From assembly GCA_964537215.1 (NCBI GenBank), contig CAZIBI010000006.1, positions 55,221 to 119,220 on the forward strand: a stretch of 64,000 nucleotides of DNA, given 5' to 3'. This document shows positions 82-36,052 of this stretch, piece by piece. This DNA is from an uncultured Ignavibacteria bacterium (lineage in GTDB: Bacteria; Zixibacteria; MSB-5A5; CAIYYT01). The translations under genes and the position numbers were made by a program. Positions within the stretch are counted from its first letter, which is position 1. Each line of letters begins with the position of its first letter. The notes beneath the pieces were generated by a model. The model searched no databases, was not told where the DNA came from, and saw nothing but the letters and a program-made list of their open reading frames with translations.

Positions 82-1413
82 GTGGCAAAACCTGTTGACC
101 GTATGGAACAAATCGTCTCGCTCTGCAAACGGCGCGGTTTCGTCTTCCCATCATCCGAAATCTATGGCGGCCTCGGCTCCTGCTGGGACTACGGCCCCTA
201 CGGCATCGAACTCAAACGCAACCTGAAGGACTTCTGGTGGAAGGCCATGACGCAAAAGCGCGACGACATCGAGGGCGTCGACGCTGCCATTCTCATGCAC
301 CCCAAGGTCTGGGAAACCTCCGGCCACGTCGCCAATTTCACCGACCCGATGGTCGACTGCAAGAAATGCAAAGCTCGTTTTCGCGCCGATCAGATGGACA
401 CCGCGCGCTGCCCGCTGAAACCAAGCAAATCCCCGCTCGAATGCGGCGGCGAACTCACCGAACCGCGCCAGTTCAACCTGATGTTCAAGACCTTCATGGG
501 TCCGGTCGAAGAATCCAGCGCTGTCGTCTATTTGCGCCCCGAGACCGCGCAAGGCATCTATGTCAACTTCCTCAACGTCATGGGTCCGGCACGCCAGAAA
601 CCACCGTTCGGTATCGCGCAAATCGGCAAGGCTTTCCGCAACGAAATCACCCCCGGCAATTTCATCTTCCGCACCCGCGAATTCGAACAGATGGAAATGC
701 AGTTCTTCATCAAACCGTCCGATGACGAACAGTGGTTCGAGTATTGGAAAGCCGAACGCCTCAAATGGTATCTCGAACTCGGCATCCGTCCCGAACGCCT
801 GCGCTATCACGAACATGGCGAGGGCGAACTCGCGCACTACGCCAAAAAAGCGTTCGACATCGAATACGAATTCCCCTTCGGCTGGAAAGAACTCGAAGGC
901 ATCCACAACCGCACCGATTTCGATTTAAGCCGCCACATGGAAGCCACCGGCAAAGACCTTTCCTATTTCGATGACCAGACGCGCGAAAAGTACGTACCCT
1001 ACATCATCGAAACTTCCGCCGGCTGCGACCGCACGCTCTTGGTCTGTCTGGTTGATGCTTATGAAGAAGAAGAAGTCAAAGGCGAAGTCCGTGTCGTGCT
1101 GAAATTCTCTCCGAAGATCGCTCCGATCAAAGCCGCGGTGCTCCCGCTCGTGAAAAAAGACGGCATGCCGGAATTCGCGACCAATCTCTTCCACGACCTC
1201 AAGAAGCACTTCAAGTGCTTCTATGACGACGCCGGCGCCGTTGGCCGCCGCTATCGCCGCATGGATGAAATCGGCACGCCGTATTGCATCACTGTCGATG
1301 GCCAAACTCTGACCGACCAAACCGTGACCATCCGTGACCGCGACACCATGACCCAAGACCGCGTCAACGTCTCGACCTTGGTCGATTGGCTGAAGGGCAA
1401 GATAGAAGGGTAA
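82..1413 (+). CDS. glyQS: Glycine--tRNA ligase (alpha2, eukaryote-like type)
   Basis: Motifs KRRGFVFPSSEIYGG, YLRPETAQGI, FRNEITP, RTREFEQME and ELEGIHNR, plus an anticodon-binding C-terminus. GTG start with GGAGG RBS. Confidence 0.97.
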   Translation: MAKPVDRMEQIVSLCKRRGFVFPSSEIYGGLGSCWDYGPYGIELKRNLKDFWWKAMTQKRDDIEGVDAAILMHPKVWETSGHVANFTDPMVDCKKCKARFRADQMDTARCPLKPSKSPLECGGELTEPRQFNLMFKTFMGPVEESSAVVYLRPETAQGIYVNFLNVMGPARQKPPFGIAQIGKAFRNEITPGNFIFRTREFEQMEMQFFIKPSDDEQWFEYWKAERLKWYLELGIRPERLRYHEHGEGELAHYAKKAFDIEYEFPFGWKELEGIHNRTDFDLSRHMEATGKDLSYFDDQTREKYVPYIIETSAGCDRTLLVCLVDAYEEEEVKGEVRVVLKFSPKIAPIKAAVLPLVKKDGMPEFATNLFHDLKKHFKCFYDDAGAVGRRYRRMDEIGTPYCITVDGQTLTDQTVTIRDRDTMTQDRVNVSTLVDWLKGKIEG

Positions 1414-1424
1414 TCTTCAATTGT

Positions 1425-1450
1425 GTCATCCCGACGAAGGTCGGGATCCA
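1425..1450. repeat. REP-like hairpin GTCATCCCGAC-GAAG-GTCGGGATCCA
   Basis: Stem atcccgac/gtcgggat with a 4-nt loop just after the glyQS stop. May double as a terminator. Confidence 0.6.
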
Positions 1451-1456
1451 GGCTTC

Positions 1457-1479
1457 GTAGGGGCGAGGTTTCCTAGCCC
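1457..1479 (+). repeat. GTAG-type REP hairpin
   Basis: GTAG followed by gggcgagg-ttt-cctagccc, an imperfect stem. Confidence 0.6.
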
Positions 1480-1493
1480 GAAAATGCACAGCC

Positions 1494-1519
1494 TCGTAGG
1501 TCGGGTTTTTCGCTTCAAG
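1494..1519 (+). repeat. Left arm of a split GTAG-type REP hairpin
   Basis: tcgtaggtcgggtttttcgcttcaag is 24/26 identical to the reverse complement of 3563-3588. It ends in cgcttcaag, which is repeated directly at 3561-3569. Confidence 0.75.
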
Positions 1520-3356
1520 TCAGTTTGGTTAACATATCATGAATCCATTTCAGCGTGAGGCTACAAGATTCTCGACTCTCCTCTGAGAATGAATGTTCCC
1601 GGCGATTTATCAGACATTCCTGAATTGACCTTGCAAAGAGGTCCTTCCTGTTCTTTTGTGCGTTCGGATAGCAGCTTTTTTGTATAACCAGACGATCATC
1701 ATCGGTAATGATTCGATCGAGGGTCTTTTTCGCAAGTGACTGTGCAACGTCACCGAGCGTGAAAACGCGGTCATGTAGGATGCTACCGAATACGTCAAGA
1801 TACCTCTTCTTCTGTCTGGCCCCTTCTCTATCTCCATCAAGCAGAATAATGAATGGCTTTCCCCAGGCGAGGTAAATCTTTATGACTGTGTCAAGTGATC
1901 CAGCACCAGTTCCGGGCAAGACTGATGACTCCGGACCCAATCTTTGATTCATCAAGTATTTTAGGACATAGAAATCATTTTTGCCTTCGACCATTACCAG
2001 TCTCGGAACGGGCTCAAGAAGGCTTGGTTGGTAGTCCAGAACATCTAAGATAGGTTGAAAATAAGTAAACTGGTCAGGATGCTTTACGGCAAACTCACGA
2101 TATCTGCTCGTTTGAATCTGCGTTTGTGAGCTGTTGTACGAATCCTCCGGCGCATCATAACTCAAACCTGCATTTCGAACGACATAGGTTCCCTCCAACC
2201 ACTCAGGGTTAATGAGATGATGACTATGCGTAGTATAGATTACGGTACACGTTTTGGCGAGGACGCCTAGACTTTTCAGAAGCTTCTGCTGCGCTGTTTG
2301 GTGGAGGTTAGACGCTGGCTCATCAAACAGAAAGAGAACTCTTTTGGACGATTGATCGTTCCGGTATCTTCTATAATGCGTAAGTAGGAAGAAGACAAAG
2401 AACCATCTAAATCCGAGTGATCTCTCCTTAATCCTATATGATTGATCTGCCTCCTTTATTTTGAATTCAACGTAGAGCTTGGGCTTGCATCCTGCAGGTT
2501 GGTCTTCTGCGTCACAAGCTATTGAAATCTCCTTGTCCTTGATCTCTCGAGAAAATATCCTGTTCCATTCAGCGAATACGACTCTTGACACGTCGCGGGA
2601 CATCTTATTTAGTAGCGCTTCGAGGCTTCTTTTGTCCTGCTTATCTGTACTCGTCGCCCGGTCTAGTAAATGAGTCTTGAAATCCAGTGATTGGTCCACT
2701 GACTTCAATATGTCCTCGAGTACTTGTCTATAGAACTGATGCTTTTTGTCATCAGTACCATAATTCTCAAGGTAGATCTTATCTGGAAAATCGAACAAGA
2801 AATTCTGAAAGTACAATATCTCAGGAATGAGATTTCGAAGTTCACCTGTGAACAGATCAATTTCTTCTTTTGCTAACTGAGAAAGGCTGATCGGGCTCTT
2901 TCTTCGCCCTCGTCTAAAACTCGCATCAATTTGGAATGTGGAACCAGTTTTTAAGTATTTCGAGTTCTTGTACCTGCGAAACTGTTTGATCTTTAGTTCT
3001 TGCCCTAAGGACTCGACGATCAAGCCAAGAGATTTTGTCATTACCTCTTTCATCTTGGCAACGTCAGCAGCATCGAGCAAGAGTTCGACATCGAGCACTA
3101 TGTCATCATTAAAATTGTGCCGCAGGTTTATTGGAATGAGCTCATGTTCATCCTCGATGGTTCTGCCAGGCAACTCTAATAGGTCTAAATCGCCTGCTTT
3201 GAATGAAAAGGCGTTTATCGCGTCTAGAATCGTCGTCTTGCCACTTTCATTAAGCCCAACAAGTGTAAAAACATCTTGAGAGGGAGATCGCCCCAAATCC
3301 ATGGATGCGTATTCAATTCCCTTGAAGTTAGTTATCTCAAATTTCGTATATCGCAT
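1515..3356 (-). CDS. OLD-family ATP-dependent nuclease (ABC/AAA ATPase + TOPRIM), probable anti-phage factor
   Basis: Walker A GLNESGKT, signature-like RSLGFRWF, Walker B LFDEPASNLH, H-loop TTHS, TOPRIM motifs VEGKND and LDGD. GC about 37-45% in hand-counted lines versus about 60% in a glyQS line. Confidence 0.85.
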   Translation of the reverse strand: MRYTKFEITNFKGIEYASMDLGRSPSQDVFTLVGLNESGKTTILDAINAFSFKAGDLDLLELPGRTIEDEHELIPINLRHNFNDDIVLDVELLLDAADVAKMKEVMTKSLGLIVESLGQELKIKQFRRYKNSKYLKTGSTFQIDASFRRGRRKSPISLSQLAKEEIDLFTGELRNLIPEILYFQNFLFDFPDKIYLENYGTDDKKHQFYRQVLEDILKSVDQSLDFKTHLLDRATSTDKQDKRSLEALLNKMSRDVSRVVFAEWNRIFSREIKDKEISIACDAEDQPAGCKPKLYVEFKIKEADQSYRIKERSLGFRWFFVFFLLTHYRRYRNDQSSKRVLFLFDEPASNLHQTAQQKLLKSLGVLAKTCTVIYTTHSHHLINPEWLEGTYVVRNAGLSYDAPEDSYNSSQTQIQTSRYREFAVKHPDQFTYFQPILDVLDYQPSLLEPVPRLVMVEGKNDFYVLKYLMNQRLGPESSVLPGTGAGSLDTVIKIYLAWGKPFIILLDGDREGARQKKRYLDVFGSILHDRVFTLGDVAQSLAKKTLDRIITDDDRLVIQKSCYPNAQKNRKDLFARSIQECLINRREHSFSEESRESCSLTLKWIHDMLTKLT

Positions 3357-3512
3357 GCTCCTCAGACCGCCTTTACGTGAGTTCGTTCAAGAAAATATAA
3401 TAGACCCGTTCGCAATAGCACAAGGAGTTTCGAATTGTAAACTGGCAGATCGCCTCCCCACCATTAAGCCAGCGCAGGACGAAACGCTAAACTCGATAAT
3501 CCTATTTATCAG

Positions 3513-3588
3513 TTCGTAGGTCGTATTCCGAGCGTTTCTGACATTCCCGCATTCGGATTCCGCTTCAAGCGAGAAACCCGACCTACGA
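3513..3588. repeat. GTAG-type REP element with terminal inverted repeat tcgtaggtcg/cgacctacga
   Basis: 10-bp terminal inverted repeat. Contains cgcttcaag and the right arm aaacccgacctacga. Confidence 0.65.
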
Positions 3589-4158
3589 CTTCCGCCCCCG
3601 CATCGCCATCAACGCAAGACTCCCATTGAGCAAAAAAATGTAGGCTGCGAAACTGGTACTCTCAAAGCTGTGGGTTTGAACTGACAGGAGACTAATCCCA
3701 AAACCGATTGCACTGATACCATACCCAATCCAACTCTCGGACTGCGGATGTCGATACGCTTTGATCAGCGTCGGTATCGCTGCGAGAATATCCGCCAGAA
3801 GCGAAAACAGCAGCGCCAAATTCGGATTGTCGGTAATCGCCCAGAGGATGATCCCAATGACGGCCGCCGCCATCAGGTAGTAGTCGCGCGGATCACTTTT
3901 CCAATACGCTTTCTCATTGAAGAACGATGCCGCGACTATCAGCAGCGGCATAAGTCCGGCAACGAACGAAGTCCACGATATGCTCGCAACGCCCTGCGCC
4001 CTTTGCGCTACAAAAATGACCAGCGGGAAAATGCCCCACAACAACCACGTGATGCGGTTTGGTTGGGCTTTGCCGACGATGGTATCGAACAGGTAATACA
4101 ATCCGCCGACCGAGCCGATCACGGCACCGACAATCGCGCAATACTCTGGTAGCATACG
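3583..4158 (-). CDS. Polytopic membrane protein of unknown function (PQ-loop-like pattern)
   Basis: About 6-7 hydrophobic segments, with PNRITWLLW and AAIPTLIKAYRHPQSE motifs. ATG near 4158 preferred over the ORF-track start at 4176. Confidence 0.6.
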   Translation of the reverse strand, partial: RMLPEYCAIVGAVIGSVGGLYYLFDTIVGKAQPNRITWLLWGIFPLVIFVAQRAQGVASISWTSFVAGLMPLLIVAASFFNEKAYWKSDPRDYYLMAAAVIGIILWAITDNPNLALLFSLLADILAAIPTLIKAYRHPQSESWIGYGISAIGFGISLLSVQTHSFESTSFAAYIFLLNGSLALMAMRGRKS

Positions 4159-4249
4159 CCAATCACCGCAAACCAATCTGAAGTGTCAAGAACTTCGTCT
4201 GCGGACCGGGTTTCTATCGAACTTGCCGGACCTCGTCCAGTCGCGCCCC

Positions 4250-4720
4250 TTACTGTGCCCGCAACTTTGCCAACACCTTGCCTTCACCGTTGAACAGTCT
4301 CAACTCGTCGCCGTTGACTTGAAATCTCATCGTTGCGTCAAGTGCATTCAGGAAAACTTGCTCATACGCCGGTTCCGTCAAACAAGCCATCTTGGTCGTC
4401 ACCAGATGCGCAAACACCAAAGTGTCCGCGCTCATCATGTAGATTCCCATCAAACGATTACAGCCGGTACTTCCGGTGACGCTGCTGTCGCTCGCTGCGA
4501 GCACGAATTGCATCGCCTTGCTGCTTGTATCCGGTGCGATAGCTGTTCCCCCGACTTCAAACACGGCCCAGGTTCTGTCGAGAATTGCCCCGCCCGTTTG
4601 TTCGGACTTTTGGCTCTCCAGCGCCGGTGTCTGCTTCTCGCTTGTCTCGCCCTTCTTTTGACATCCAACACCAACAAAGACCAAGACCGCTGCCACCGTG
4701 CCGACAACAATTTGCTTCAT
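4250..4720 (-). CDS. META domain (HslJ-like) lipoprotein
   Basis: Lipobox VGVGC and the META pattern GSTGCNRLMG...TTKMAC. Confidence 0.85.
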   Translation of the reverse strand: MKQIVVGTVAAVLVFVGVGCQKKGETSEKQTPALESQKSEQTGGAILDRTWAVFEVGGTAIAPDTSSKAMQFVLAASDSSVTGSTGCNRLMGIYMMSADTLVFAHLVTTKMACLTEPAYEQVFLNALDATMRFQVNGDELRLFNGEGKVLAKLRAQ

Positions 4721-4829
4721 GCTTTCCCTCCCTGAAGATTCATTTTGTGCTTGAGCCCAATTGACTCACACTTTGAGCCGTAACACAATAGAATACGCAG
4801 AGACTCTAATTGCAAATCAGGAGGAATTA

Positions 4830-5278: not shown

Positions 5279-5319
5279 GGTCGGGTTTGATTCCTGCTTT
5301 GAGCGCAGCAGACCCGACC
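5279..5319. repeat. REP-like hairpin or terminator after osmC
   Basis: ggtcgggttt...agacccgacc arms resemble those at 1494 and 3563. Confidence 0.5.
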
Positions 5320-5501: not shown

Positions 5502-7001
5502 ATGTCTAAACGTGACCCCAATCGTAGTCACATCCGCGCATTCGCTTCGGCGCGAATAATAGTCGCGCTATTACTTACTACATTTATTTCTGGCATTGCC
5601 CTCGCGGCGCAACCGTCGATTTCGATCGAACGCCCGCGGGACGTGATACAAGGATCCTTCGAGTATGTCGATGTCAAATACGAAGCCAACAGTTCAAGTC
5701 TGCAATTTGCCGGATTTGACCTCTTGATATCTTATGACGCAGCTGCCTTGACCCTGATTGATGCCACACAGGGAAATCTCCTGAACGACTGCGGCTGGCA
5801 GTACTTCACCTACCGCGTCGGCAACGACGCTTGCACGGGCAGTTGTCCTTCCAGCGTTGTTCGCATCGTTGCTCTTGGCGATAGTCCGCAGGTATCCGGG
5901 CAGCAATCGTGCAATCTCGGCGCGTCGTCTGGAAACCTCGCGACCATTAAGTTCCTCGTCACTAATGATGCCAGCTTTGAATGCATAACCGTACCCGTTC
6001 AATTCTATTGGTCCGATTGCGGCGACAATGTATTAAGCAGCGTAACCGGCAATACTCTGTTCGTCGCCGATACTGTATATTACGGATTCGCATCCGACCT
6101 GATTTACCCAGTTCCGAACGGACTGCAAACCAATCAAGGTTGGCCCGAATCCTGTGCTTCCGAGCTGGGAAACAACCAGGCAAATCGCGCTGTCAACTTC
6201 CGCGAGGGCGGTGTCAGCATCGTGTGTCCTGAGCCTATCGACTATCGCGGCGATATCAACCTCAACGCGCTTGCCTATGAAGTCGCCGATGCAATTCTCT
6301 TCTCCGACTACTTTTTCGCTGGACTAGCGGCATTCACGACAGACGTCAACGCCCAGGTCGACGCCACCGACGTCAACGCCAACGGCCTGCCGCTGGAATT
6401 TCGCGACCTAATATATCTCCTCCGAATCATTCTCGGCGACGCTCTGCCGTTCCCCAAGGCTCCCGCGGTCGATACCTTGACGGCTGTCTTTACCCAGAAT
6501 ACTCTTTCTAAATTTGTGCGCGTAGAATCGCCGCACCTGCTGGCTGGCGCAATTCTCGATTTTGACGGCCAAATCACCCCCGACTACTTGCCCGCCGCGC
6601 CCGATAATTTCTTCCAAGAATCGATGAACCTTGCCGGCGGAACCCGGATACTTGTCGCAAGCGGCCAACCGGGCCAGGCTACAAACGGGATCTGGTTCAG
6701 CTATACCGGCGATGCCGCCCTCGTTTCGGTGACGACGACAGATTTCGCGGACTCTCCAATTGACGCCCAGATTGCTTTTGAAACCGCCCCGGCTAACTGC
6801 GGCGACGTCAACAACGATAGACATACCAACATCAGTGACGCAGTCTCCCTGATCAACTACATCTTCGATGTCTTTCCGTCGCAGATCGATCCATACGCCT
6901 CGGATGTTGATTGCGACCGGATGATTTCGATTTCTGATGCGGTCTTACTGGTGAATTACATTTTCGCGGGCGGTACAGCGCCCTGCGCGGCCTGCAACTA
7001 A
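5502..7001 (+). CDS. Secreted cohesin-like + two dockerin-like domain protein
   Basis: Signal peptide. Cohesin-type strand pattern GFDLLISYDAAALTL. Internal dockerin-like pair GDINLN...AD / DVNANG...RDLIYLLR. C-terminal dockerin CGDVNND..ISDAVSLINYIF / DVDCD..ISDAVLLVNYIF. RBS GGAGG before ATG 5502. Confidence 0.8.
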   Translation: MSKRDPNRSHIRAFASARIIVALLLTTFISGIALAAQPSISIERPRDVIQGSFEYVDVKYEANSSSLQFAGFDLLISYDAAALTLIDATQGNLLNDCGWQYFTYRVGNDACTGSCPSSVVRIVALGDSPQVSGQQSCNLGASSGNLATIKFLVTNDASFECITVPVQFYWSDCGDNVLSSVTGNTLFVADTVYYGFASDLIYPVPNGLQTNQGWPESCASELGNNQANRAVNFREGGVSIVCPEPIDYRGDINLNALAYEVADAILFSDYFFAGLAAFTTDVNAQVDATDVNANGLPLEFRDLIYLLRIILGDALPFPKAPAVDTLTAVFTQNTLSKFVRVESPHLLAGAILDFDGQITPDYLPAAPDNFFQESMNLAGGTRILVASGQPGQATNGIWFSYTGDAALVSVTTTDFADSPIDAQIAFETAPANCGDVNNDRHTNISDAVSLINYIFDVFPSQIDPYASDVDCDRMISISDAVLLVNYIFAGGTAPCAACN

Positions 7002-7044
7002 ACATTGTTAGCAGCAACGACTTAACACGATTCGCCGAGGTATC

Positions 7045-7971
7045 ATGCCCAAGCTTTCAATCTCCTGCAGCTGTGTGCACAATTTTCTAATCAGTGCCTT
7101 CGTGTGCACAGTGGTTGTTTGCTCTTTCGCATCGACAACGACGCTTGCTTACGAGCCAAAAGTTTTCATTGAATACGCCGGAAACGCCTCCACCGGTAGC
7201 CGGGAATCTATCAGGGTCTTTTTCGACCCTAACCGTTCTGGATTCAGGGCCGCCGCTTTCGAACTCATGATCAGCTACGATGCGACCGTACTCGAAATCG
7301 ATACTGTGATGCCGGGACAATTGCTTACCAGTTGCCATTGGGATTTCTTCGTCTATCAGACCGGCGCCGCAACCCCTTGCGGCACCGGCTGCCCGGAGGG
7401 GGTTATTCGTATCGTTGGGATGTCTTGGAATCCGCCCTCTTGCTATCTCGGAGATACTGGACCGGGAGCGATCGCCGTCATGAAGTTTACTTTTATCGGC
7501 AACATCGGGAACGGCTGTAAGTCGTTTCCAATTCGTTTTTTCTGGAGCAAGTGTTCAGATAACACTTTTGTTGGGGGCACCGGTTATCCCGTTTATACCG
7601 CTGATAGCGTCTTCTGGAGTGACCAACCCAATCACTATTACCCGATTCCTGCCGGACTCTACACAAACGAAGGAATGCCCCCCTCTTGCTATGTGTCCGA
7701 TCCACATCGCATGATTACCTTCCGCGAGGGCGCAGTAGTGACCGCCTGTCCCCTCCCATCCCCAATCTGCGGAGATACTAATTTTGATCAGGTCATCAAC
7801 ATGGGGGATGCCGTCGCGTTGGTGAATCACATCTTTTTGCATATGCCGCTGCCATGGGGTGCGTCATCTGGTGACATGAACTGCGACTTTGCCAGGACCC
7901 TTGCCGACGTTGTGTATCTGGTCAACTACATCTTCAATAAAGGACCGGCTCCCTGCGCCGGCTGTAAGTGA
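7045..7971 (+). CDS. Secreted cohesin-like + one dockerin domain protein
   Basis: Signal peptide, AFELMISYDATVLEI cohesin pattern, and C-terminal CGDTNFDQVINMGDAVALVNHIF / GDMNCD..LADVVYLVNYIF. Confidence 0.8.
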   Translation: MPKLSISCSCVHNFLISAFVCTVVVCSFASTTTLAYEPKVFIEYAGNASTGSRESIRVFFDPNRSGFRAAAFELMISYDATVLEIDTVMPGQLLTSCHWDFFVYQTGAATPCGTGCPEGVIRIVGMSWNPPSCYLGDTGPGAIAVMKFTFIGNIGNGCKSFPIRFFWSKCSDNTFVGGTGYPVYTADSVFWSDQPNHYYPIPAGLYTNEGMPPSCYVSDPHRMITFREGAVVTACPLPSPICGDTNFDQVINMGDAVALVNHIFLHMPLPWGASSGDMNCDFARTLADVVYLVNYIFNKGPAPCAGCK

Positions 7972-7985
7972 GAATCTGCGCCCTA

Positions 7986-8546
7986 TTAGGGAGCGAGTCG
8001 CATTCCGTTGCTGCTATGATCAATTAACTTTTCCAGCCGCTTCTGCCGCGTCTCTTCCTTCTTCGCGCTCATTACCCAGAAACTCGCGACTCGCTGGTAC
8101 CACGGCGCTTGCGCGCTGAAAAATTCCCACGCCTTTTTGTTCTTGCGCAATATCTTTTCGTAAGCATCATCAAGCTTGCGCGGTTTCTGCTCGTAAGAGT
8201 AATCCCGCCGCTTGCTGGAGCTGCGCTCAAACGCCGTCGCGCCGCAAGGCATCACCAGTCCGAGTTGCTTAAGTTCACCATATCGCTCGATATTGACCTT
8301 GCTCCAATTGCTCGTTGCCCTGCGCGGCGTGAAACGAATCTTGTAACTTGAGCTGTCTATACTTTTGCGCACTCCATCAATCCAACCGAAACACAACGCC
8401 TCATCCACCGATTCCTTCCAACTGATACTCGGCTGTCCCGAGCTGACTTTGTAGAAACCCACCCACAGCTCGTCAACATGGGAATGATTGGCCCTCAGCC
8501 AGCGCCGAAACTCCGCCTGGGTTTTGAAGAACTTGATTTCTGGCAT
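7986..8546 (-). CDS. YdeI/OmpD-associated family protein
   Basis: FRRWLRANH, EALCFGWIDG, RFTPRR..SNWS and C-terminal KKEETRQKRL motifs. Confidence 0.88.
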   Translation of the reverse strand: MPEIKFFKTQAEFRRWLRANHSHVDELWVGFYKVSSGQPSISWKESVDEALCFGWIDGVRKSIDSSSYKIRFTPRRATSNWSKVNIERYGELKQLGLVMPCGATAFERSSSKRRDYSYEQKPRKLDDAYEKILRKNKKAWEFFSAQAPWYQRVASFWVMSAKKEETRQKRLEKLIDHSSNGMRLAP

Positions 8547-8602
8547 TACTCGAACAAGCTCCCAATTTCGAAAGCTCCTGTCAAGTCATCGATACAATAT
8601 TC

Positions 8603-8631
8603 TTGACAATTACTAACTGACTGACTATCAT
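8603..8631 (+). promoter_or_regulatory. Sigma70-type promoter of the third cohesin-dockerin gene
   Basis: TTGACA (8603-8608), 17-nt spacer, TATCAT (8626-8631). Confidence 0.65.
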
Positions 8632-8740
8632 GGTTGAGTAACTCAAGTATTCATCAACTTCTCTTTCATAGGAATCTAACCGCCTCATTCTGCTATCGGA
8701 CAGTTGTCTTCGATTCCTGACTAAAACCAGAGGAGGTTGT

Positions 8741-10237
8741 ATGTCTGTTCCTGTCTTCTTACCGCGCATTCTGACAAATAAGCGCGTCGCCGCATTGGCA
8801 TTGCTCGCCGTTGCTCTCTTATTCTTTCCATCGACTTCGTTCTCCGCTACCACCATTACAATTCCAAGAACGCACAATACGCAGCTCGGTGATACTGTCC
8901 TAATGCCCGTTCAGCTCGATCGCAACGAGCCAGGGCCTGAATTTAGCTCATTCAAGTTACGAATACATTACACCGCATTTCTCGTCGACTTGATCTCTGT
9001 GGAGCCCGGCGATATGCTCTCTGGCTGCGGCTGGGAGCAATTCGAATACCAGCTCGGCTCGCTAAACGCCGACAGCATCGGTACAATCACCATCTCCGCT
9101 GTCGCCAACGTCGCAGGCATTCCCGGCGCGCCCAGCTGCTATCTTGGCCCCGCACTCGGATCAATTGTCAATCTCAAGTTCCATGTCCCCAATGACGAAT
9201 CAAACGAGTGCCAGACTGCATTTGTTAATTTCTATTGGCTCAACTGCAACGATAACGCCTTTGCCACGATAGCCGGTGATTCACTATATGTCGCAGGCGA
9301 CGTCTATGAGTGGGACTGGATACTGCCTGTGCCGGCTGCACTCTCAACTTACGCCGGGCTGCCCAACTCCTGCCTGTCCGGCCCCATCGACGGCAGGACT
9401 CCGCACCGGGCAATTACCTACAAACAAGGATTCATCGACATTACTTGCGGGCCTGATCCCACTGCTCATGGCGACCTCAATTTGAACGGAATCGGATACG
9501 AAATTGCCGATGCGGTTCTTTATGTTGAATACTTTCTGAACGGACCGTCCGTATTTAGCTCCGATCCTATCATTCGCGCCAACCAAATAATCGCCAGCGA
9601 TGCGAACGCTGATGTCGAGACTCTTACCTTCCGCGACTTGACTTATCTCCTGCGTGTGATTGTCGGAGACGCTCTCCCATTTCCCAAACCGTCCGCTTCC
9701 GAGTCTCTTGAAGCAACATTCACGCAAGACTTTGCTGCCAAGACGATCACTGTGACTTTCGCTGGGGACCTCTCCGGAGCATATTTTGAGTTTACCGGCG
9801 ACATTGTTCCAACATTCAATCCGGCGGCCCCTTCGGGCTTTGCACGTTACTATGCATTTGACGGTGTGAAGACGCATGTGATAAGCGTGTCGGAAACTCC
9901 AAACCCGACGCCTGGCCCGCTCTGGTTCTCCTACACAGGCGATGGCGTTCTTTCTTTCGTAGGAACGGCCGACTACCATGACAACCTAATCATTGCCAAC
10001 GTAGTTTATCTGAACCCGCCGTCCGCAGAGTGCGGTGATGTCAACTATGACCAGATGACTAACATCAGCGACGCGGTTTACCTAATCAGCTATATCTTCG
10101 TCGGTGGCCCGCCCCCGGTGGATTTGGCCGACGGCGATGTCGACTGTAATGGCTTAGTGACCGTCTCCGATGCCGTCTTCCTGATCAACTACATCTTCGC
10201 CGGCGGAAGCGCGCCCTGCGCAAACTGCCCGCAATAA
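8741..10237 (+). CDS. Secreted cohesin-like + two dockerin-like domain protein (paralogue of 5502..7001)
   Basis: Same architecture as the first paralogue, with shared GDxNLN...YE(V/I)ADA, FRDL.YLLR.I.GDALPFPK and C-terminal ISDAV dockerin. RBS GGAGG. Confidence 0.82.
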   Translation: MSVPVFLPRILTNKRVAALALLAVALLFFPSTSFSATTITIPRTHNTQLGDTVLMPVQLDRNEPGPEFSSFKLRIHYTAFLVDLISVEPGDMLSGCGWEQFEYQLGSLNADSIGTITISAVANVAGIPGAPSCYLGPALGSIVNLKFHVPNDESNECQTAFVNFYWLNCNDNAFATIAGDSLYVAGDVYEWDWILPVPAALSTYAGLPNSCLSGPIDGRTPHRAITYKQGFIDITCGPDPTAHGDLNLNGIGYEIADAVLYVEYFLNGPSVFSSDPIIRANQIIASDANADVETLTFRDLTYLLRVIVGDALPFPKPSASESLEATFTQDFAAKTITVTFAGDLSGAYFEFTGDIVPTFNPAAPSGFARYYAFDGVKTHVISVSETPNPTPGPLWFSYTGDGVLSFVGTADYHDNLIIANVVYLNPPSAECGDVNYDQMTNISDAVYLISYIFVGGPPPVDLADGDVDCNGLVTVSDAVFLINYIFAGGSAPCANCPQ

Positions 10238-10462: not shown

Positions 10463-12427
10463 ATGCGCCGCATAACTATTGGGGCCGGTCTATTCGCAGC
10501 TATCTTGCTCGTCGCTGTAACTACGGCTTTTGCTGTGGTTCCCAGCAAAGTCTCGGTCCAGGGCCGCTTGACAGATTCGGCCGGCTCTCCCGTGCCCGAC
10601 GGCAGCTACATGATTACTTTCACCTTGTGGGACGCCCCAATTGGCGGCGCAATGGTGGCGAGTGAAATCCAAAACGTGACCGTGACCGACGGTTTGTTTT
10701 CTGCCAACCTTGAATACGACGGCGAAAAGTTCGCCGGCGGCTCGTCGCGCTATCTCCAGTATCAGATTCAGGGTGACCCGCCGATAACCCCGCGCGTTCT
10801 CATGACCTCTTCCCCTTACTCGTTGATTAGCTCTCGAGTCAGCGGCGATATCGAGACCTCCGCGGGCGAGCTAAAACTAAGACGTGGCTCGGTATCGGCG
10901 TCGAATTTTCGTATCGTCGGCGATGACGACGGCGATCTCTTCAACGTGGAAGCAAAACCCGACAGCACCAAAATTAGAATCATTCGTCATTCCTCCGGCG
11001 ACCCGGACTTTGACCTGCTCCGCATTGTTGGCGGATCTTCAAACAGCGGCGGTACACAAGCCGACGGCGCAATGATCGCCATCACCGGCGATCCCGACTT
11101 TGATTTGCTTCGCGTCACTGCCGGCAAAGACAGTGCCAAAATTCGCATCAGCGCCCAAAGCAGCGGCGACCCCGACTTTGACTTATTGCGCATCAGCGGT
11201 GGCGGCGGCCCCAGTTCCGGCGGCGCCGAGATGTCGATGGGCGGCGACCCCGACTTTGATTTGCTGCGCGTCTCCGCGGACAAAGATAGCGCCAAGATTC
11301 GCATCAGCGGCCAGAGCAGCGGCGACCCCGATTTTGACCTCTTGCGTATCGTCGGTGGAGTCGGATCCAGTTCGAGCGGTGCGAGTATGACAATCACCGG
11401 CGATCCCGATTTCGATCTCTTGAGAATCAGCGCCGATGCCGACAGTGCCAAGATCCGCATGAGCGGGCAAATTTCCGGCGACCCGGACTTTGATCTGCTT
11501 CGCATCGTCGGCGGATCGGGATCATCTCATCTCTCCATGCAGAGCGAACCCAGCGGCGCAGCCTCGATTTCGCATGCGATGGATGTCTCATGCGATAACA
11601 ACGGCGCCGATCTTCGGTTGCGTGTCGTTCCGAGTGCGCAAACAGTCGGCACTACGCATATGCACGTCGACGATCATAGCGCGTCATTGAGAGTAGCCAC
11701 TGGCGATGTCACCGGCGATGGCATCGAACTTAGCGCAGACAACACAGGTAAATATCTCGTTGTCGGATCGACCCACTATCTCGACGGGACACGTTCCAGC
11801 GACGACGAGGTCGTCAAGACCTTTAGTTGGAAGCAACTCGGCGGGCCGCCTGTGACCCGGATGCAAATGCGCGCCGATAGCCTCGGTAGTTCAACGATGT
11901 GTCGAGGTCTGCGCGGCTATGACGTAATTTTGTTATCTGACCAAAACGGCGCCAAGATGCAGCTGGAAGACTCCGCTAACAACGTCATGATGGAAATGCT
12001 CGGCGAAGGCCGTCTCGGTGTCGGCAAACCGGCTGATAATGTCAAACGTATTGATGTCCTCGGCGGCGCATTTTGCAACGGCACAAACTGGGTCAACGCG
12101 TCTGATGTCAATTCCAAAGAGAATTTCCGGCCCATCGACGCGCAGGAACTTCTCAATAAGTTGGCCCAGCTCGAGATTACCGAGTGGAACTACCGCGGCG
12201 AGGGCGAAAACGCTCGCCACATCGGTCCGACCGCGCAGGATTTCTACAAGCTATTTGGAATTGGAAATGACGACAAGTCGATATCGACCATTGATCCTGC
12301 CGGCATTTCACTGGTCGCAATCAAAGAGCTGTACAAGAAGAGCAAGGAAGTCGACCAACTCAAGCAGCAAGTCGACGATTTGTCAAAGCAGTTACTCGAG
12401 ATTCGCGAGCAGTTGAAGCACAAGTAA
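10463..12427 (+). CDS. Secreted fibre protein with C-terminal peptidase S74 intramolecular chaperone domain
   Basis: Signal peptide, N-terminal QGRLTD..PVPDG module, internal GDPDFDLLR repeats, C-terminal SDVNSKEN...HIGPTAQDF and a terminal coiled coil. RBS GGAGGAG before ATG 10463. Confidence 0.8.
   Translation: MRRITIGAGLFAAILLVAVTTAFAVVPSKVSVQGRLTDSAGSPVPDGSYMITFTLWDAPIGGAMVASEIQNVTVTDGLFSANLEYDGEKFAGGSSRYLQYQIQGDPPITPRVLMTSSPYSLISSRVSGDIETSAGELKLRRGSVSASNFRIVGDDDGDLFNVEAKPDSTKIRIIRHSSGDPDFDLLRIVGGSSNSGGTQADGAMIAITGDPDFDLLRVTAGKDSAKIRISAQSSGDPDFDLLRISGGGGPSSGGAEMSMGGDPDFDLLRVSADKDSAKIRISGQSSGDPDFDLLRIVGGVGSSSSGASMTITGDPDFDLLRISADADSAKIRMSGQISGDPDFDLLRIVGGSGSSHLSMQSEPSGAASISHAMDVSCDNNGADLRLRVVPSAQTVGTTHMHVDDHSASLRVATGDVTGDGIELSADNTGKYLVVGSTHYLDGTRSSDDEVVKTFSWKQLGGPPVTRMQMRADSLGSSTMCRGLRGYDVILLSDQNGAKMQLEDSANNVMMEMLGEGRLGVGKPADNVKRIDVLGGAFCNGTNWVNASDVNSKENFRPIDAQELLNKLAQLEITEWNYRGEGENARHIGPTAQDFYKLFGIGNDDKSISTIDPAGISLVAIKELYKKSKEVDQLKQQVDDLSKQLLEIREQLKHK
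10919..11554 (+). repeat. Intragenic tandem repeat with 78-nt (26-aa) period; 7 GDPDFDLLR copies plus 1 degenerate
   Basis: Motif starts at 10919 (degenerate), 10997, 11087, 11165, 11243, 11321, 11399 and 11477. Spacing is 78 nt except one of 90 nt. The end coordinate is approximate. Confidence 0.9.
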
Positions 12428-23131: not shown

Positions 23132-23256
23132 TTGCGGCTTTCCTGCGAAGTTATAAGACTTAAGCGGTTCATATAATCTATTATACGGGAATAATAACCG
23201 TCTCAAGCACCATCAGCAACTTATTTACTTGAAAAGCGATGTTGAAGAGAAGCCTT

Positions 23257-23318
23257 GTAGGTCGAAACCCCTAATGGCAGACTGTGGCAATCTTGGACCA
23301 ACTTAGTGGGGTTTCGAC
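23257..23318. repeat. GTAG-type REP-like long hairpin
   Basis: gtag-gtcgaaacccc ... ggggtttcgac, an 11-bp inverted repeat. Confidence 0.5.
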
Positions 23319-33588: not shown

Positions 33589-34958
33589 TTACCAATCGCC
33601 TCCAGGACTTTCGGCGCCGTCTTGTAAATGTCACCCGCACCAACGGTAAACACGACATCGCCCGGCTGCGCAAACTTCGCGACTATCGCCGGAATCTGCG
33701 TAACGTCTTCGACATATTGCACGTTTTTGTGTCCGAATCGCGACGAGGCATCGCTGATCATCGCCGAAGTTACACCCTCAATCGGCTTTTCCCGCGCCGG
33801 ATAAATCTTCGCCAGAATTAGCATGTCCGACGTCAACAGCGCCTTGGCAAATTCTTCGTAGAAGTCTTTCGTCCTGCTGAACAAATGCGGCTGGAAAATC
33901 ACGATGATGCGGTTTTTGAACGCAATTCGCGCCGCCTGCAATGTCACATCGATTTCCGTCGGATGATGACCATAGTCGTCGTAAACCTTGATGCCGTTCT
34001 TCTCGCCGATCAAATCAAAGCGGCGATTCACGCCCTTGAAACTCTCCAGCGCTTTCTTAATCGTCGCAAACGGAATATCCGTCTCCAGCGCGACTGAAAT
34101 CGCCGCCAGCGCGTTCTTCACGTTGAACACACCCGGCTTCGGCAGCATGATCTCACCCAGCAATTTGCCGTGATGATAAACATCGAATTTCGTCGTCGTG
34201 CCGGTTTGGTGCACGTTATCTGCCCGCGTATCGGCTTGTCCCTTGAGTCCAAAAGTTCGAATTGGCCGAATCAAATTGGGAATCAAGCTCACCAAGTTCG
34301 ATTCATCGAGATTGAGGTGAATCGTCCCATAAAACGGGACCTTGTTCGCAAACTGTGTAAACGCGACTTTGATCTCGTCCAGATCCTTGTAATAGTCGAG
34401 ATGATCAGCTTCCAGCGTCGTAAATACCGCGATCGAAGGCGTCAGCGTCAGGAACGAGCGGTCATATTCGTCCGCCTCGGCAATCAAAAGCTCGCCCTTA
34501 CCCAACTTGACCGTCGTTTCAAATGAAATCACGCGCCCGCCAACCATGACCGTCGGATCCATGCCCGCCACAACAAAAATGTGTCCAAGCATCGATGTCG
34601 TCGTCGTCTTGCCGTGGGTTCCGGCAACACCGATTCCGAATTTCAATCGCATCAGTTCGCCGAGCATTTCCGCGCGGCGGATGATCGGAATCTTCCGGCG
34701 GCGCGCTTCGATTATCTCCGGATTGTCTTCATGTACCGCCGAAGAAATCACCACGCAGTCCGCGCTGTTGACATTCGCGGTCGCGTGGCCTTCGAAGACT
34801 TTGATGCCGATCGCTTCGAGATGATCTGTCACTTCCGTCTTCGCCAGATCGCTGCCGGTGACAAAGTAATCTTGATTATGCAATACTTCGGCAAGGCCGC
34901 ACATTCCGATGCCGCCGATGCCGACAAAATGCAATTTCTTTATCTTCCCGAACTTCAT
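33585..34958 (-). CDS. murC: UDP-N-acetylmuramate--L-alanine ligase
   Basis: HFVGIGGIGM, GTHGKTTT, EADEYD and DDYGHHPTE. ATGA overlap with murG. Confidence 0.97.
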   Translation of the reverse strand: MKFGKIKKLHFVGIGGIGMCGLAEVLHNQDYFVTGSDLAKTEVTDHLEAIGIKVFEGHATANVNSADCVVISSAVHEDNPEIIEARRRKIPIIRRAEMLGELMRLKFGIGVAGTHGKTTTTSMLGHIFVVAGMDPTVMVGGRVISFETTVKLGKGELLIAEADEYDRSFLTLTPSIAVFTTLEADHLDYYKDLDEIKVAFTQFANKVPFYGTIHLNLDESNLVSLIPNLIRPIRTFGLKGQADTRADNVHQTGTTTKFDVYHHGKLLGEIMLPKPGVFNVKNALAAISVALETDIPFATIKKALESFKGVNRRFDLIGEKNGIKVYDDYGHHPTEIDVTLQAARIAFKNRIIVIFQPHLFSRTKDFYEEFAKALLTSDMLILAKIYPAREKPIEGVTSAMISDASSRFGHKNVQYVEDVTQIPAIVAKFAQPGDVVFTVGAGDIYKTAPKVLEAIGK

Positions 34959-36052
34959 CTCCACCCCATGTATTCGAATATTCGCTGCACGATCGCCTCC
35001 GCCGCACCCTTGCGGCCAAGCGATCCTGACGCCATGCTCATCGCGAGCAATTTCGAGTCATCGTTTATAAGCTGTGTTATCAAACTCACAAGGTTTAAGT
35101 CGCGTAATTGTGAATCTTTTATCAAAATCGCACCGCCAGCTTCGACCAACGTCTCGGCATTCTTGGTTTGGTGATCGTCAGTCGCTTGCGGAAACGGCAC
35201 GACTATCGCCGGTTTGCCCGCGGCAGTGACTTCCGCCAGCGTCAACGCTCCAGCGCGGCAGACAATCAAATCCGCCACCGCGTACGCCGCCGGCATGTCC
35301 TGGATGAACTGCGTCGCCAGTCCGGCATTTCCCGATGCCTGAAATGCTGCGATCGACTTGGGATGATTACCGCATTGCCAAAACAACTGCAGATCTTTCA
35401 ACTTCCCCAGCTCCGGCAGCGAACTTTCGATCTTGCCGTTTATCGAAGCCGCACCCTGCGATCCGCCCAATACCAGCAGAGTCTTCTTGTTCGGATCGAG
35501 GTTGAAATTGGCGTACGCCTCTTCGCGGTCGACCTCGCCGATGCGCGGATTCACCGGATTACCGCTAAGTATGCACTTCTCGCGAAACCCGATTCGCGCC
35601 GCTGCCTGGTCGTAAGCCAGAAAAATCAAATCGGCATAGCGCGCGAGTTTCAATGTCGCGACACCCGCGTATGAATTCTGCTCTTGAATGAACGCTGCTC
35701 TGTTCGTCAACTTGGCTCCCAAAACTGCTGGAAACGACAAATACCCGCCGGTCCCGACGACGAGGTCGGGATTGAATTTGATGATCTTCGCAATCGCTTG
35801 CATGACTCCGACCGCCAGAACCGGCAGGAACATCAGATTACCGACTATGCTTCCGCGCTTGAGTCCGCGCACATTGATCTTGCTCATGGCAAACCCGCGC
35901 GAACCGATTAGCTTCATTTCCAAATCACGGCCCGTAACAAAAAACTTGATCTCGCATTCCGTCCCGCAGCGGCGTTGAAATTCCTGCGCTATCGCAAACG
36001 CGGGAAACAAATGTCCGCCTGTGCCGCCGCCTGCAAACATGATTCGCCTCAA
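34955..36052 (-). CDS. murG: Undecaprenyl-PP-MurNAc-pentapeptide GlcNAc transferase
   Basis: GGGTGGHLFP, GTGGY, QEQN, GGSQGA and RAGA. Confidence 0.97.
   Translation of the reverse strand: MRRIMFAGGGTGGHLFPAFAIAQEFQRRCGTECEIKFFVTGRDLEMKLIGSRGFAMSKINVRGLKRGSIVGNLMFLPVLAVGVMQAIAKIIKFNPDLVVGTGGYLSFPAVLGAKLTNRAAFIQEQNSYAGVATLKLARYADLIFLAYDQAAARIGFREKCILSGNPVNPRIGEVDREEAYANFNLDPNKKTLLVLGGSQGAASINGKIESSLPELGKLKDLQLFWQCGNHPKSIAAFQASGNAGLATQFIQDMPAAYAVADLIVCRAGALTLAEVTAAGKPAIVVPFPQATDDHQTKNAETLVEAGGAILIKDSQLRDLNLVSLITQLINDDSKLLAMSMASGSLGRKGAAEAIVQRIFEYMGWR

What the first reader, a model, noticed from the sequence alone, without database searches (positions are those of the whole stretch)
1494..3588. 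Stand-alone OLD nuclease inserted into the loop of a REP hairpin, bounded by a 9-bp direct repeat
Seen: cgcttcaag occurs at 1511-1519 and again at 3561-3569. Removing the intervening DNA and one copy rebuilds a near-perfect 45-nt hairpin, tcgtaggtcgggtttttcgcttcaagcgagaaacccgacctacga. The TGA stop of the OLD gene (1515-1517) lies inside the left copy. The insert is low GC, carries only this gene, and has no transposase, integrase or terminal inverted repeats of its own. Established: OLD-family ATPase-TOPRIM proteins include anti-phage effectors (P2 Old, Gabija GajA), and no GajB-like helicase or retron RT is adjacent here. Inference: a defence gene was delivered as a cassette by REP-targeted or REP-mediated recombination, making REPs possible landing pads for defence genes.
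Basis: partly seen in the sequence, partly recalled or inferred. Interest (0 to 1): 0.7.

Follow-up and report, generated by a model that had tools for sequence, protein, structure and literature searches.

The report
OLD defence gene in variable hotspot
A lone OLD-type ATPase-nuclease gene, probably anti-phage, sits in a gap between two conserved genes that in related bacteria is empty or holds other candidate defence genes. The palindromes around it are local REP-like elements, not the scar of a cassette dropped into one hairpin.

Summary
The reported sequence features are all present: 26-nt inverted arms (24/26), a 9-bp repeat, the OLD stop codon inside the left copy, and low GC. The gene is an intact single-gene OLD-family ATPase-TOPRIM protein.

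The proposed mechanism does not hold.
- The right arm is already a complete GTAG-headed REP hairpin (3553-3588).
- The 9-bp repeat is the palindromic top of that REP read in two inverted copies, not a target duplication.
- The left arm is a truncated second copy sitting at the junction.

The glyQS / membrane-gene spacer is a REP-rich hotspot. Related Zixibacteria-like genomes have it empty (251-272 bp), or carry ORF6N (PDC-S05), FRG (PDC-S15), a PD-T4-6-like kinase, or HNH plus a RAYT transposase with its own REP array.

Identity between the OLD allele and an empty allele is mosaic (99-100% versus 89-93%). This suggests alleles are exchanged by homologous recombination in the flanks.

How OLD first entered is unresolved. 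A break at a REP hairpin apex is plausible but unproven.

It is a new member of known kinds and of moderate interest.

The parts
82..1413 (+). glyQS (glycine-tRNA ligase), the conserved left flank of the hotspot
   Evidence: NF003211 E = 9.7e-200. It is adjacent to the hotspot in relatives L084, L123, L129, L131-133 and L170.
1425..1480 (+). Two native REP-type palindromes just after glyQS: GTCATCCCGACGAAGGTCGGGATCC and TCGTAGGGGCGAGGTTTCCTAGCCCG
   Evidence: Conserved in empty allele L084 and in L123. blastn homology to L084 runs up to window 1480.
1481..1496 (+). Native linker AAAATGCACAGCCTCG, the last sequence shared with relatives on the left side
   Evidence: Shared with L123 (GAAAATTCGCAGACTCG) in alignment A3.
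1494..1519 (+). Left arm, 'REP-L'. It is a truncated REP copy: head TCGTAGGT, stem strand CGGGTTTTTCGCTT, apex C1516, then AAG. The similarity ends 3 nt past the apex. It forms the left junction of the novel DNA.
   Evidence: 24/26 complementary to 3563-3588. 21/24 identical to the reverse complement of the L101 element. It does not fold on its own (-1.6 kcal/mol, z = -0.2).
1511..1519 (+). Left copy of the 9-bp repeat CGCTTCAAG (stem top plus apex of REP-L). It contains the OLD stop codon.
1515..3356 (-). OLD-family gene, 613 aa: N-terminal ABC-type ATPase plus C-terminal TOPRIM
   Evidence: AAA_15 E = 2.4e-26. PADLOC Old model matches residues 325-510. Walker A GLNESGKTT, Walker B LFLFDEPASNLH, and E457 and D507xD509 are invariant in 31 homologues. 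PF20469 scores 21.5 bits on the C-terminal domain. Top full-length Foldseek hits are GajA and TsOLD.
3357..3506 (-). 5' region of OLD (presumed promoter/UTR). It is part of the novel DNA and has no counterpart in relatives.
   Evidence: No significant similarity to the L101 spacer (score 6.0 against a shuffle mean of 7.6). Not aligned by blastn to L084.
3507..3545 (+). Native TATCAGT plus REP1' (TCGTAGGTCGTATTCCGAGCGTTTCTGACATT). It is orthologous to the first REP of the doublet in empty alleles. Its head (3514-3523) is a 10-bp direct repeat of 1494-1503.
   Evidence: Aligns to L084 (score 19 versus 7.5 +/- 1.3, 0 of 1000) and to L129 (27.5 versus 8.9 +/- 1.5, 0 of 1000). Direct repeat D16.
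3553..3588 (-). 'REP-X', a complete GTAG-headed REP. The hairpin is 3553-3581: short strand CGGATTCCGCTT, apex C3566, long strand AAGCGAGAAACCCG. It is followed by the head ACCTACGA. The right arm of the inverted repeat is 3563-3588.
   Evidence: Folds at -7.5 kcal/mol alone. The 81-nt doublet 3510-3590 folds at -18.8 kcal/mol, z = -5.0. Same family and same 2-nt bulge as L101 CGGGTTCCGCGCTGCGCGGAAAACCCGACCTACG. AAGCGAGAAACCCGAC is also present in L129 and GCGAGAAACCCGAC in L170.
3561..3569 (+). Right copy of the 9-bp repeat (stem top plus apex of REP-X)
3583..4155 (-). Conserved 190-aa membrane protein gene, the right flank of the hotspot. Its TAG stop (3583-3585) is the TAG of the REP head GTAG.
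   Evidence: It is called as 190 aa in L001. The variable region begins directly after its stop codon in every allele.

Best explanation
The 2.0-kb segment from about 1497 to 3506 is horizontally acquired DNA. It carries one gene, a class-1-type (single-gene) OLD ATPase-TOPRIM nuclease that most likely acts in anti-phage defence. It occupies a strain-variable hotspot, the spacer between glyQS and a conserved membrane-protein gene. That spacer is built from GTAG-headed REP-like palindromes. In related Zixibacteria-like genomes the spacer is empty or holds different accessory genes, mostly defence candidates.

The two 'hairpin arms' are two inverted copies of one local REP type.
- The right copy (3553-3588) is a complete, native REP that overlaps the stop codon of the membrane gene.
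- The left copy (1494-1519) is cut off 3 nt past its hairpin apex, exactly where the foreign DNA starts.
- The 9-bp 'direct repeat' is the palindromic stem-top and apex of this REP, read on the same strand in both orientations. It is not a target-site duplication.

Inferred steps:
- The original entry was an illegitimate or REP-associated joining event. Most simply, a break occurred at the apex of a pre-existing REP hairpin and was repaired by capture of foreign DNA.
- Once formed, the OLD allele moves between strains by homologous recombination in the flanking genes, not by transposition.
For: Shown:
1. Empty alleles exist in strains with 94-95% identical flanks (L084, L103, L102). They carry a different REP doublet next to the membrane-gene stop, and homology to the window stops at 1480 and resumes at 3578.
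2. Window 3507-3577 is orthologous to spacer DNA of L129 (FRG cargo), L084 and L101, with 0 of 1000 shuffles reaching the score in each case (alignment A2). The left side is native up to about 1496 (A3).
3. The right arm forms its own hairpin with a proximal strand. The 81-nt unit 3510-3590 has the same architecture as the 68-nt REP doublet of the empty alleles. L101 has an intact element of the same family.
4. The hotspot has at least six states:
   - OLD (window, L001, L002);
   - ORF6N, matching PADLOC PDC-S05 at 3.9e-54 (L105/L131);
   - FRG, matching PDC-S15 at 1e-65, plus a 312-aa gene (L129);
   - a 283-aa gene plus a Ser/Thr kinase matching PD-T4-6 at 8e-80 (L132);
   - HNH plus Y1 transposase/RAYT plus a REP array plus a 161-aa gene (L123/L176);
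   - empty (L084, L103, L170).
   An additional, different flank in L088 is uncharacterised.
5. In L131 the ORF6N gene is bracketed by four REP-head remnants (CCGACnTAC) within 700 nt.
6. Identity between the window and L084 is mosaic. It is 98.7-100% over 4178-4777, but 89-96% over the membrane gene next to the spacer and about 91% over 901-1200 of glyQS. This is as expected if the spacer was exchanged together with adjoining flank DNA.
7. No transposase, integrase, tRNA or terminal inverted repeats of the insert were found, and no RAYT lies in the 64-kb window.
8. OLD identity rests. The homologues examined are single genes in unrelated contexts.
Against: - The two arms are 24/26 identical. 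That is closer than REP copies of this type are between strains, so a recent common origin linked to the insertion event cannot be excluded.
- The exact arm sequence was found nowhere else in the window or, above chance, in GTDB genomes or JGI metagenomes. The element is therefore not shown to be a dispersed, multi-copy REP. Only looser relatives were seen, at 5279-5319, at 23255-23318 and in L101, L129 and L170.
- The junction lying exactly at a hairpin apex hints at a hairpin-specific process that I could not identify.
- No empty allele from a very close strain (over 99% flanks) was available, so the immediate pre-insertion state is unknown.
- Defence function is inferred from family membership and context only.
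Confidence: 0.6

Rival explanations
1. First reader's model. A gene cassette (1520-3560) was inserted into the loop of a single 45-nt REP hairpin by a REP-targeting enzyme acting in trans, duplicating 9 bp of the loop.
For: The rebuilt hairpin is nearly perfect (-23.1 kcal/mol, z = -9.1) and the arms are 24/26 complementary. REP-targeting insertion sequences are known, for example ISPpu9 (PMC8450116). L101 shows that intact double-headed hairpins of this family exist at this locus.
Against: 3507-3560 lies inside the supposed insert but is orthologous to native spacer in relatives. The right arm already has a partner strand with the family-typical bulge. The 9-mer is the palindromic apex, so it is expected without any duplication, and it is not significant on its own. 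The intact family element in L101 lies at a different place in the spacer, upstream of the doublet, not at the position of the window's right arm. No empty allele has the rebuilt hairpin. The OLD stop codon would have to be supplied by the target.
Confidence: 0.05
2. REPIN-with-cargo. The unit 1494-3588, two inverted REPs in the head-out arrangement that also flanks RAYT genes, is or was a non-autonomous element. It would be mobilised as single-stranded DNA by a RAYT (Y1 transposase) encoded elsewhere, carrying OLD as passenger.
For: The arms have GTAG/CTAC heads at the outer ends, as in REPINs (PMC3116915, PMC3337134; GTAG role in PMC3479197). A RAYT flanked by inverted REPs sits in the same spacer in L123/L176. 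There is no target duplication outside the arms, which is expected for this transposase class.
Against: The left REP is truncated and cannot fold. The right REP overlaps the stop codon of a conserved gene and is native. The RAYT in L123 is associated with a different REP (GGGTGCCCCACCGCTTGCGGTGGG). No RAYT lies in the window. The exact OLD protein occurs only in this context, and the next homologue is 51% identical. Known REPIN spacers are tens of bases, not 2 kb.
Confidence: 0.1
3. OLD arrived together with REP-L as a 'gene plus its 3' REP' module from another place in the same or a closely related genome. Recombination between REP heads would have brought it in; note the 10-bp direct repeat TCGTAGGTCG at 1494 and 3514.
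For: The novel segment begins exactly with a REP head and ends 8 nt before another head in the same orientation. In L131 the ORF6N cargo is likewise bracketed by direct head remnants.
Against: OLD is low-GC (0.434) whereas REP-L resembles host REPs. A simple Campbell-type crossover in the head would make TATCAGT donor DNA, yet it is native (L084, L129). No other genomic copy is known.
Confidence: 0.15

Closest known systems
Class 1 OLD family nucleases (P2 Old, Thermus scotoductus OLD PDB 6P74, Vibrio cholerae OLD, E. coli YbjD)
   Same: It is a single gene with an N-terminal ABC ATPase with Walker A/B motifs and a C-terminal TOPRIM with a conserved Glu and DxD. It has no helicase, RT or AriB partner. 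The class definition is in PMC10568477. Defence by class 1 members is reported in PMC12392090 and PMC13261556. A profile of the family hits 6p74 (1.7e-8), and Foldseek's best full-length matches are GajA and TsOLD.
   Different: It is very divergent in sequence. There is no PDB hit by single-sequence search. PF20469 scores just below its cut-off (21.5 versus 23.2 bits). The PADLOC Old model covers only residues 325-510. It is about 610 aa, belongs to a large, mostly unnamed environmental clade (3390 hits at E <= 1e-10 among the candidates scored), is not found in phage records, and has no tested activity.
Core-gene-flanked defence hotspots (P. aeruginosa cDHS1/2, PMC10250203; E. coli hotspots, PMC10121019)
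   Same: A fixed position between conserved genes holds different defence cargo in different genomes. [quoted passage not shown]
   Different: It is much smaller, with one or two genes and 0.25-3.3 kb. It lies in an uncultured FCB-group lineage. The spacer is made of REP-type palindromes and in one relative houses a RAYT.
REP / BIME / REPIN elements and RAYT transposases
   Same: A GTAG head precedes an imperfect hairpin. Inverted doublets occur (3510-3590 in the window, 68 nt in L084). RAYT genes are flanked by such elements (PMC3479197; PMC3116915), and a RAYT is present at the same locus in L123.
   Different: High copy number and dispersal are not shown for this element. The OLD-flanking pair is 2 kb apart and one member is truncated. 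The local RAYT belongs to another REP type.
REP-targeting insertion sequences (ISPpu9; from my own knowledge IS1397, ISPa11, IS621)
   Same: Foreign DNA lies within a REP cluster, with one junction at a hairpin apex.
   Different: There is no transposase, no terminal repeats of the insert and no genuine target duplication.

Membership tests
OLD family nuclease | N-terminal ABC-type ATPase with Walker A and Walker B motifs | tested here: met
   PF13175 AAA_15 E = 2.4e-26 over residues 1-382. GLNESGKTT and LFLFDEPASNLH are invariant in 31 homologues.
OLD family nuclease | C-terminal TOPRIM domain with catalytic Glu and DxD | tested here: met
   E457 (EGKND) and D507xD509 (LLDxDxEG) are invariant. 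PF20469 E = 3.4e-4 at 21.5 bits, just under the 23.2 cut-off. The AF2 model (pLDDT 84) has GajA and TsOLD as its best full-length Foldseek hits.
OLD family, class 1 | Single gene with no UvrD-like helicase, retron RT/ncRNA or AriB-type partner next to it | tested here: met
   The neighbours are glyQS and a conserved membrane gene. No Rfam RNA was found. Homologues P0062, P0002 and P0046 are also alone, in unrelated contexts. Definition from PMC10568477.
OLD family, class 1 | ATP-dependent nuclease activity and phage protection | not testable with these tools
   Needs expression, phage challenge and nuclease/ATPase assays.
REP / REPIN | Short imperfect palindrome with a conserved GTAG tetranucleotide at its foot | tested here: met
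   TCGTAGGT precedes the hairpin at 3553-3588. REP1' lies at 3514-3545. Doublets fold at -18.8 (window) and -25.8 kcal/mol (L084). GTAG role from PMC3479197.
REP / REPIN | Many dispersed copies in intergenic regions of the same genome | tested here: inconclusive
   There is no further copy of the arm in 64 kb. Hits in genome and metagenome collections are at chance level. Looser GGTCGGGTTT palindromes occur at 5279-5319 and 23255-23318. The rest of the genome was not available.
REP / REPIN | Cognate RAYT (Y1 transposase) in the genome, flanked by the same REPs | tested here: inconclusive
   None in the window (tblastn). A RAYT (PF01797, 7.2e-9) sits at the orthologous spacer in L123/L176, but with a different REP sequence.
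Transposon / IS-type insertion | Target-site duplication flanking the insert that is single-copy in the empty site | tested here: not met
   The 9-mer is the REP apex. The segment between the supposed duplication copies includes native DNA. Empty alleles lack the rebuilt site.
Transposon / IS-type insertion | Transposase or integrase and terminal inverted repeats of the element | tested here: not met
   OLD is the only real ORF. The insert ends share no repeats.
Core-gene-flanked defence hotspot | Same flanking conserved genes with alternative cargo, or none, across related genomes | tested here: met
   At least six states of the glyQS / membrane-gene spacer, with gaps from 251 to 3315 bp.
Core-gene-flanked defence hotspot | Cargo enriched in defence genes | tested here: met
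   OLD. PDC-S05 at 3.9e-54 and PDC-S15 at 1e-65. PD-T4-6-like kinase at 8e-80. HNH. Caveats: the PDC systems are candidates only, and a kinase-domain match may be generic.

The most novel reading that the evidence does not exclude
REP arrays act as true landing pads. A hairpin- or GTAG-head-directed process captures or moves single-gene defence cassettes at REP apices or heads. The process could be a RAYT working in trans, or nuclease cleavage of extruded REP hairpins followed by end-joining. The OLD unit bounded by two inverted REP copies would be one product, and the REP-head-bracketed ORF6N gene in L131 another. This would be a transposase-free route of defence-gene acquisition in this clade.
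Probability: 0.12. Interest if true: 0.75.

Novelty: new member of a known kind. Interest (0 to 1): 0.35.

Why it matters
- It identifies a compact hotspot between a tRNA-synthetase gene and a conserved membrane gene in an uncultured phylum, carrying defence and defence-candidate genes. This gives independent 'guilt by location' support to the PADLOC candidates PDC-S05 and PDC-S15.
- It points to a large, uncharacterised branch of single-gene OLD proteins.
- It gives a worked example of why inverted copies of a palindromic repeat mimic a target-site duplication.
- If the REP link proved mechanistic, it would offer a testable, transposase-free route for defence-gene gain. At present that link is only an association.

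Tried and rejected
1. **Search for the arm as a dispersed REP.** I scanned the window, GTDB genomes and JGI metagenomes.
   - Only chance-level hits appeared. One was in msrA coding sequence.
2. **Search for the intact 45-mer in any allele.** It was not found.
3. **Modified hairpin model.** The idea was that window 3400-3513 holds the degraded right half of a REP palindrome like the L101 element.
   - Alignment score was 6.0, below the shuffle mean of 7.6, so this is not supported.
4. **Inversion between the arms as the origin of the arrangement.** I rejected this because the REP1'-REP-X order is colinear with L129 and L170.
5. **Campbell-type crossover in the 10-bp head repeat.** This is inconsistent with TATCAGT being native.
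6. **First glyQS-based locus scan.** Close relatives (95-97% GlyRS) appeared only through the membrane-protein query.
7. **Promoter and terminator consensus scan.** It was uninformative.
8. **Single-sequence PDB search.** It found nothing. The profile search was needed.
9. **Phage and plasmid collections.** There was no phage match, and plasmid matches were only about 25% identical.
Full report
**Observation**

- The arms 1494-1519 and 3563-3588 are 26 nt and 92% complementary. They form the strongest inverted repeat in the whole window.
- CGCTTCAAG occurs at 1511-1519 and 3561-3569.
- The ORF 1515..3356(-) encodes 613 aa, and its TGA stop lies in the left copy.
- The ORF has GC 0.434, against 0.53-0.56 in the flanking genes.
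- The rebuilt 45-mer folds at -23.1 kcal/mol, z = -9.

Two qualifications apply. The 9-mer alone is not significant: it has 3 copies against 1.05 expected, and 9 of 100 shuffles do as well. There is also a third partial copy, TCGTAGGTCG at 3514-3523.

**The gene**

The protein is an OLD-family ATPase-TOPRIM.
- AAA_15 matches residues 1-382 at E = 2.4e-26, and the PADLOC Old model matches 325-510.
- In an alignment with 30 homologues, Walker A (GLNESGKTT), Walker B (LFLFDEPASNLH), the TOPRIM Glu (E457 in EGKND) and DxD (D507, D509) are invariant.
- The isolated C-terminal domain hits PF20469 at 21.5 bits, just under the cut-off.
- A profile of the family reaches TsOLD 6p74 at 1.7e-8.
- The AF2 model has pLDDT 84, and its best full-length Foldseek matches are GajA and TsOLD.
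- The family is large, with 3390 hits at E <= 1e-10 among the candidates scored. Members are about 610 aa and come from many phyla, but the nearest relative is only 48-51% identical.
- Three homologues inspected are single genes in unrelated contexts. One lies next to GmrSD, one among housekeeping genes, and one in an integrase-bearing island.
- No helicase, RT, ncRNA or tRNA is nearby in the window.

By the published context-based definition (PMC10568477) it is class 1. Function is inferred, not shown.

**Empty and alternative alleles**

Exact-protein look-ups of the neighbouring META-domain gene and of relatives of the 190-aa membrane gene recovered the same locus from other strains and species.
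- L001 and L002 are 100% identical to the window and carry OLD.
- L084, L087, L103 and L102 have flanks 94-95% identical but lack OLD.
  - glyQS and the membrane gene are 245-290 bp apart there.
  - Homology to the window stops at 1480 and resumes at 3578.
- The spacer in these strains is built of GTAG-headed palindromes. It ends in a 68-nt inverted REP doublet, TCGTAGGTCCGAACCCCTGTGGTTCGGAC...CGGAACCGCGGGGGTTCCGACCTACGA (-25.8 kcal/mol). The last bases of that doublet supply the TAG stop of the membrane gene.

Other genomes have other contents at the same place:
- L105/L131: an ORF6N gene matching PADLOC PDC-S05 at 3.9e-54.
- L129: an FRG gene matching PDC-S15 at 1e-65, plus a 312-aa gene.
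- L132: a 283-aa gene plus a Ser/Thr kinase matching PD-T4-6 at 8e-80.
- L133: the same 283-aa gene plus a 143-aa gene.
- L123/L176: an HNH gene, a Y1 transposase (RAYT-like, PF01797) flanked by inverted GGGTGCCCCACCGCTTGCGGTGGG REPs with a five-copy REP array, and a 161-aa gene.
- L170: empty, 251 bp.
- L088: yet another flank.

The site is therefore a recurrent hotspot for accessory genes, mostly defence candidates.

**Why the hairpin-insertion model fails**

1. The right arm is not an orphan half.
   - On its own strand, CGGATTCCGCTT (3554-3565) pairs with AAGCGAGAAACCCG (3567-3580) and is followed by the head ACCTACGA.
   - L101 has an intact element of the same type, CGGGTTCCGCG-CTG-CGCGGAAAACCCG-ACCTACG, with the same 2-nt length difference between its strands.
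   - L129 contains AAGCGAGAAACCCGAC and L170 contains GCGAGAAACCCGAC.
2. Window 3507-3577 lies inside the proposed insert but aligns to the native spacers of relatives.
   - Against L129: score 27.5 versus shuffles 8.9 +/- 1.5, 0 of 1000.
   - Against L084: score 19.0 versus 7.5 +/- 1.3.
   - Against L101: score 16.5 versus 7.6 +/- 1.2 (A2).
   - The 81-nt unit 3510-3590 folds like the 68-nt doublet of the empty alleles, with outer head-head stem and two inner hairpins.
3. The 9-mer CGC-TT-C-AAG is the stem top and apex of this palindrome. Any two inverted copies read alike on one strand there, and only the single apex base distinguishes 'direct' from 'inverted'.
4. No allele shows the rebuilt 45-mer.

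On the left, native sequence runs to about 1496, because GAAAATkCrCAGmCTCG is shared with L123 (A3). The novel DNA is therefore about 1497-3506. It comprises REP-L, OLD and 150 nt of OLD upstream sequence.

**What the left arm is**

REP-L (1494-1519) consists of head, one stem strand, the apex and 3 nt. After that the similarity stops and the OLD 3' end begins. The last 5 nt of the ORF, including the stop codon, overlap it.
- It cannot fold alone.
- It is 24/26 identical to the reverse complement of the right REP, and 21/24 to that of the L101 element.

I read it as a second copy of the local REP type, truncated at the junction with foreign DNA. Whether it was already there, which would fit a break at the hairpin apex, or came with OLD, cannot be decided.
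- My attempt to find the lost half in 3400-3513 was negative.
- The heads at 1494 and 3514 form a 10-bp direct repeat that nearly brackets the novel DNA.
- In L131 the ORF6N gene is bracketed by four head remnants in 700 nt, against roughly 0.2 expected from the motif's density in the window.

An association between REP heads and cargo boundaries is real. A mechanism is not shown.

**Is it a REP in the strict sense?**

Form: yes, a GTAG head precedes an imperfect hairpin (PMC3479197). Copy number: not shown.
- The exact arm occurs only here in 64 kb.
- Scans of GTDB genomes and JGI metagenomes gave 1, 17 and 2 hits, all at chance level.
- Looser relatives with GGTCGGGTTT...AAACCCGACC stems lie after the OsmC gene (5279-5319, conserved in L084) and at 23255-23318.
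- No RAYT is in the window.

**Spread**

Identity between the window and L084 is mosaic.
- It is 98.7-100% across the META gene (4178-4777).
- It is 89-96% across the membrane gene next to the spacer.
- It is 99% at 151-300 but about 91% at 901-1200 of glyQS.

This is what exchange of the spacer by homologous recombination in the flanking genes would leave. [quoted passage not shown]

**Verdict**

The cassette-in-a-hairpin-loop model with a 9-bp duplication is not supported. The broader idea that REP clusters mark a landing zone for defence genes is supported only as an association.

This is a new member of known kinds: a class-1-type OLD in a core-gene-flanked hotspot. The small, REP-built, RAYT-visited hotspot in an uncultured lineage is the most interesting by-product.

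Noticed in passing
window 3583-4155 (-): The 190-aa membrane protein has no Pfam family, yet it is 70-80% identical across very distant phyla: Zixibacteria, Holophagae/Geothrix, Chloroflexia, Actinomycetota, and about 60% in Saccharibacteria. That is unusually high conservation, or frequent transfer, for a small unnamed membrane protein. One source calls a relative 'PQ loop repeat-containing'.
   Followed up: partly
L123 5240-5480 and 5547-6260 (same in L122/L176): A RAYT-like Y1 transposase (HUH motif HVH) is flanked by inverted GGGTGCCCCACCGCTTGCGGTGGG REPs. A five-copy tandem array of about 59 nt has one REP in each unit. An HNH endonuclease gene is also bounded by the same REP.
   Followed up: partly
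window 5279-5319: The hairpin GGTCGGGTTTG-19 nt-CAGACCCGACC lies directly after the OsmC gene and is conserved in L084. It has the same stem core as the OLD-flanking arms but lacks the TCGTA head. It is probably a terminator or REP relative.
   Followed up: partly
window 23255-23318: A GTAG-headed palindrome, TTGTAGGTCGAAACCCC-36 nt-GGGGTTTCGAC, lies in an intergenic gap between convergent ORFs. It resembles the REP type of the empty alleles.
   Followed up: no
window 10959-11517: Three to four tandem 156-nt coding repeats (63-78% identity), plus Dockerin-type repeats at 6837-10199. This suggests large secreted repeat proteins next to the locus (Dockerin_1 in L101).
   Followed up: no
window 34588-42170: Four paralogous P-loop segments spaced 1.5-3.6 kb apart look like Mur ligase genes of a cell-wall (dcw) cluster.
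   Followed up: no
L088 1796-1889: Another allele of the hotspot. An unrelated ORF starts right after the membrane-gene stop, but the contig is too short to identify it.
   Followed up: no
L129 2435-3373, L132/L133 283-aa gene, L123 4645-5130: Several hotspot cargo genes (312 aa, 283 aa, 161 aa) have no Pfam or PADLOC match. Their location makes them candidates for unknown defence or accessory functions.
   Followed up: partly
window 1494-1513 versus L083 7810-7829: The arm matches 22 nt of an msrA coding region (AKNPTYEAV) in a Thiobacillus MAG. The number of hits equals the chance expectation, so I treat it as coincidence.
   Followed up: yes
They surfaced only through the membrane-protein query.
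   Followed up: yes
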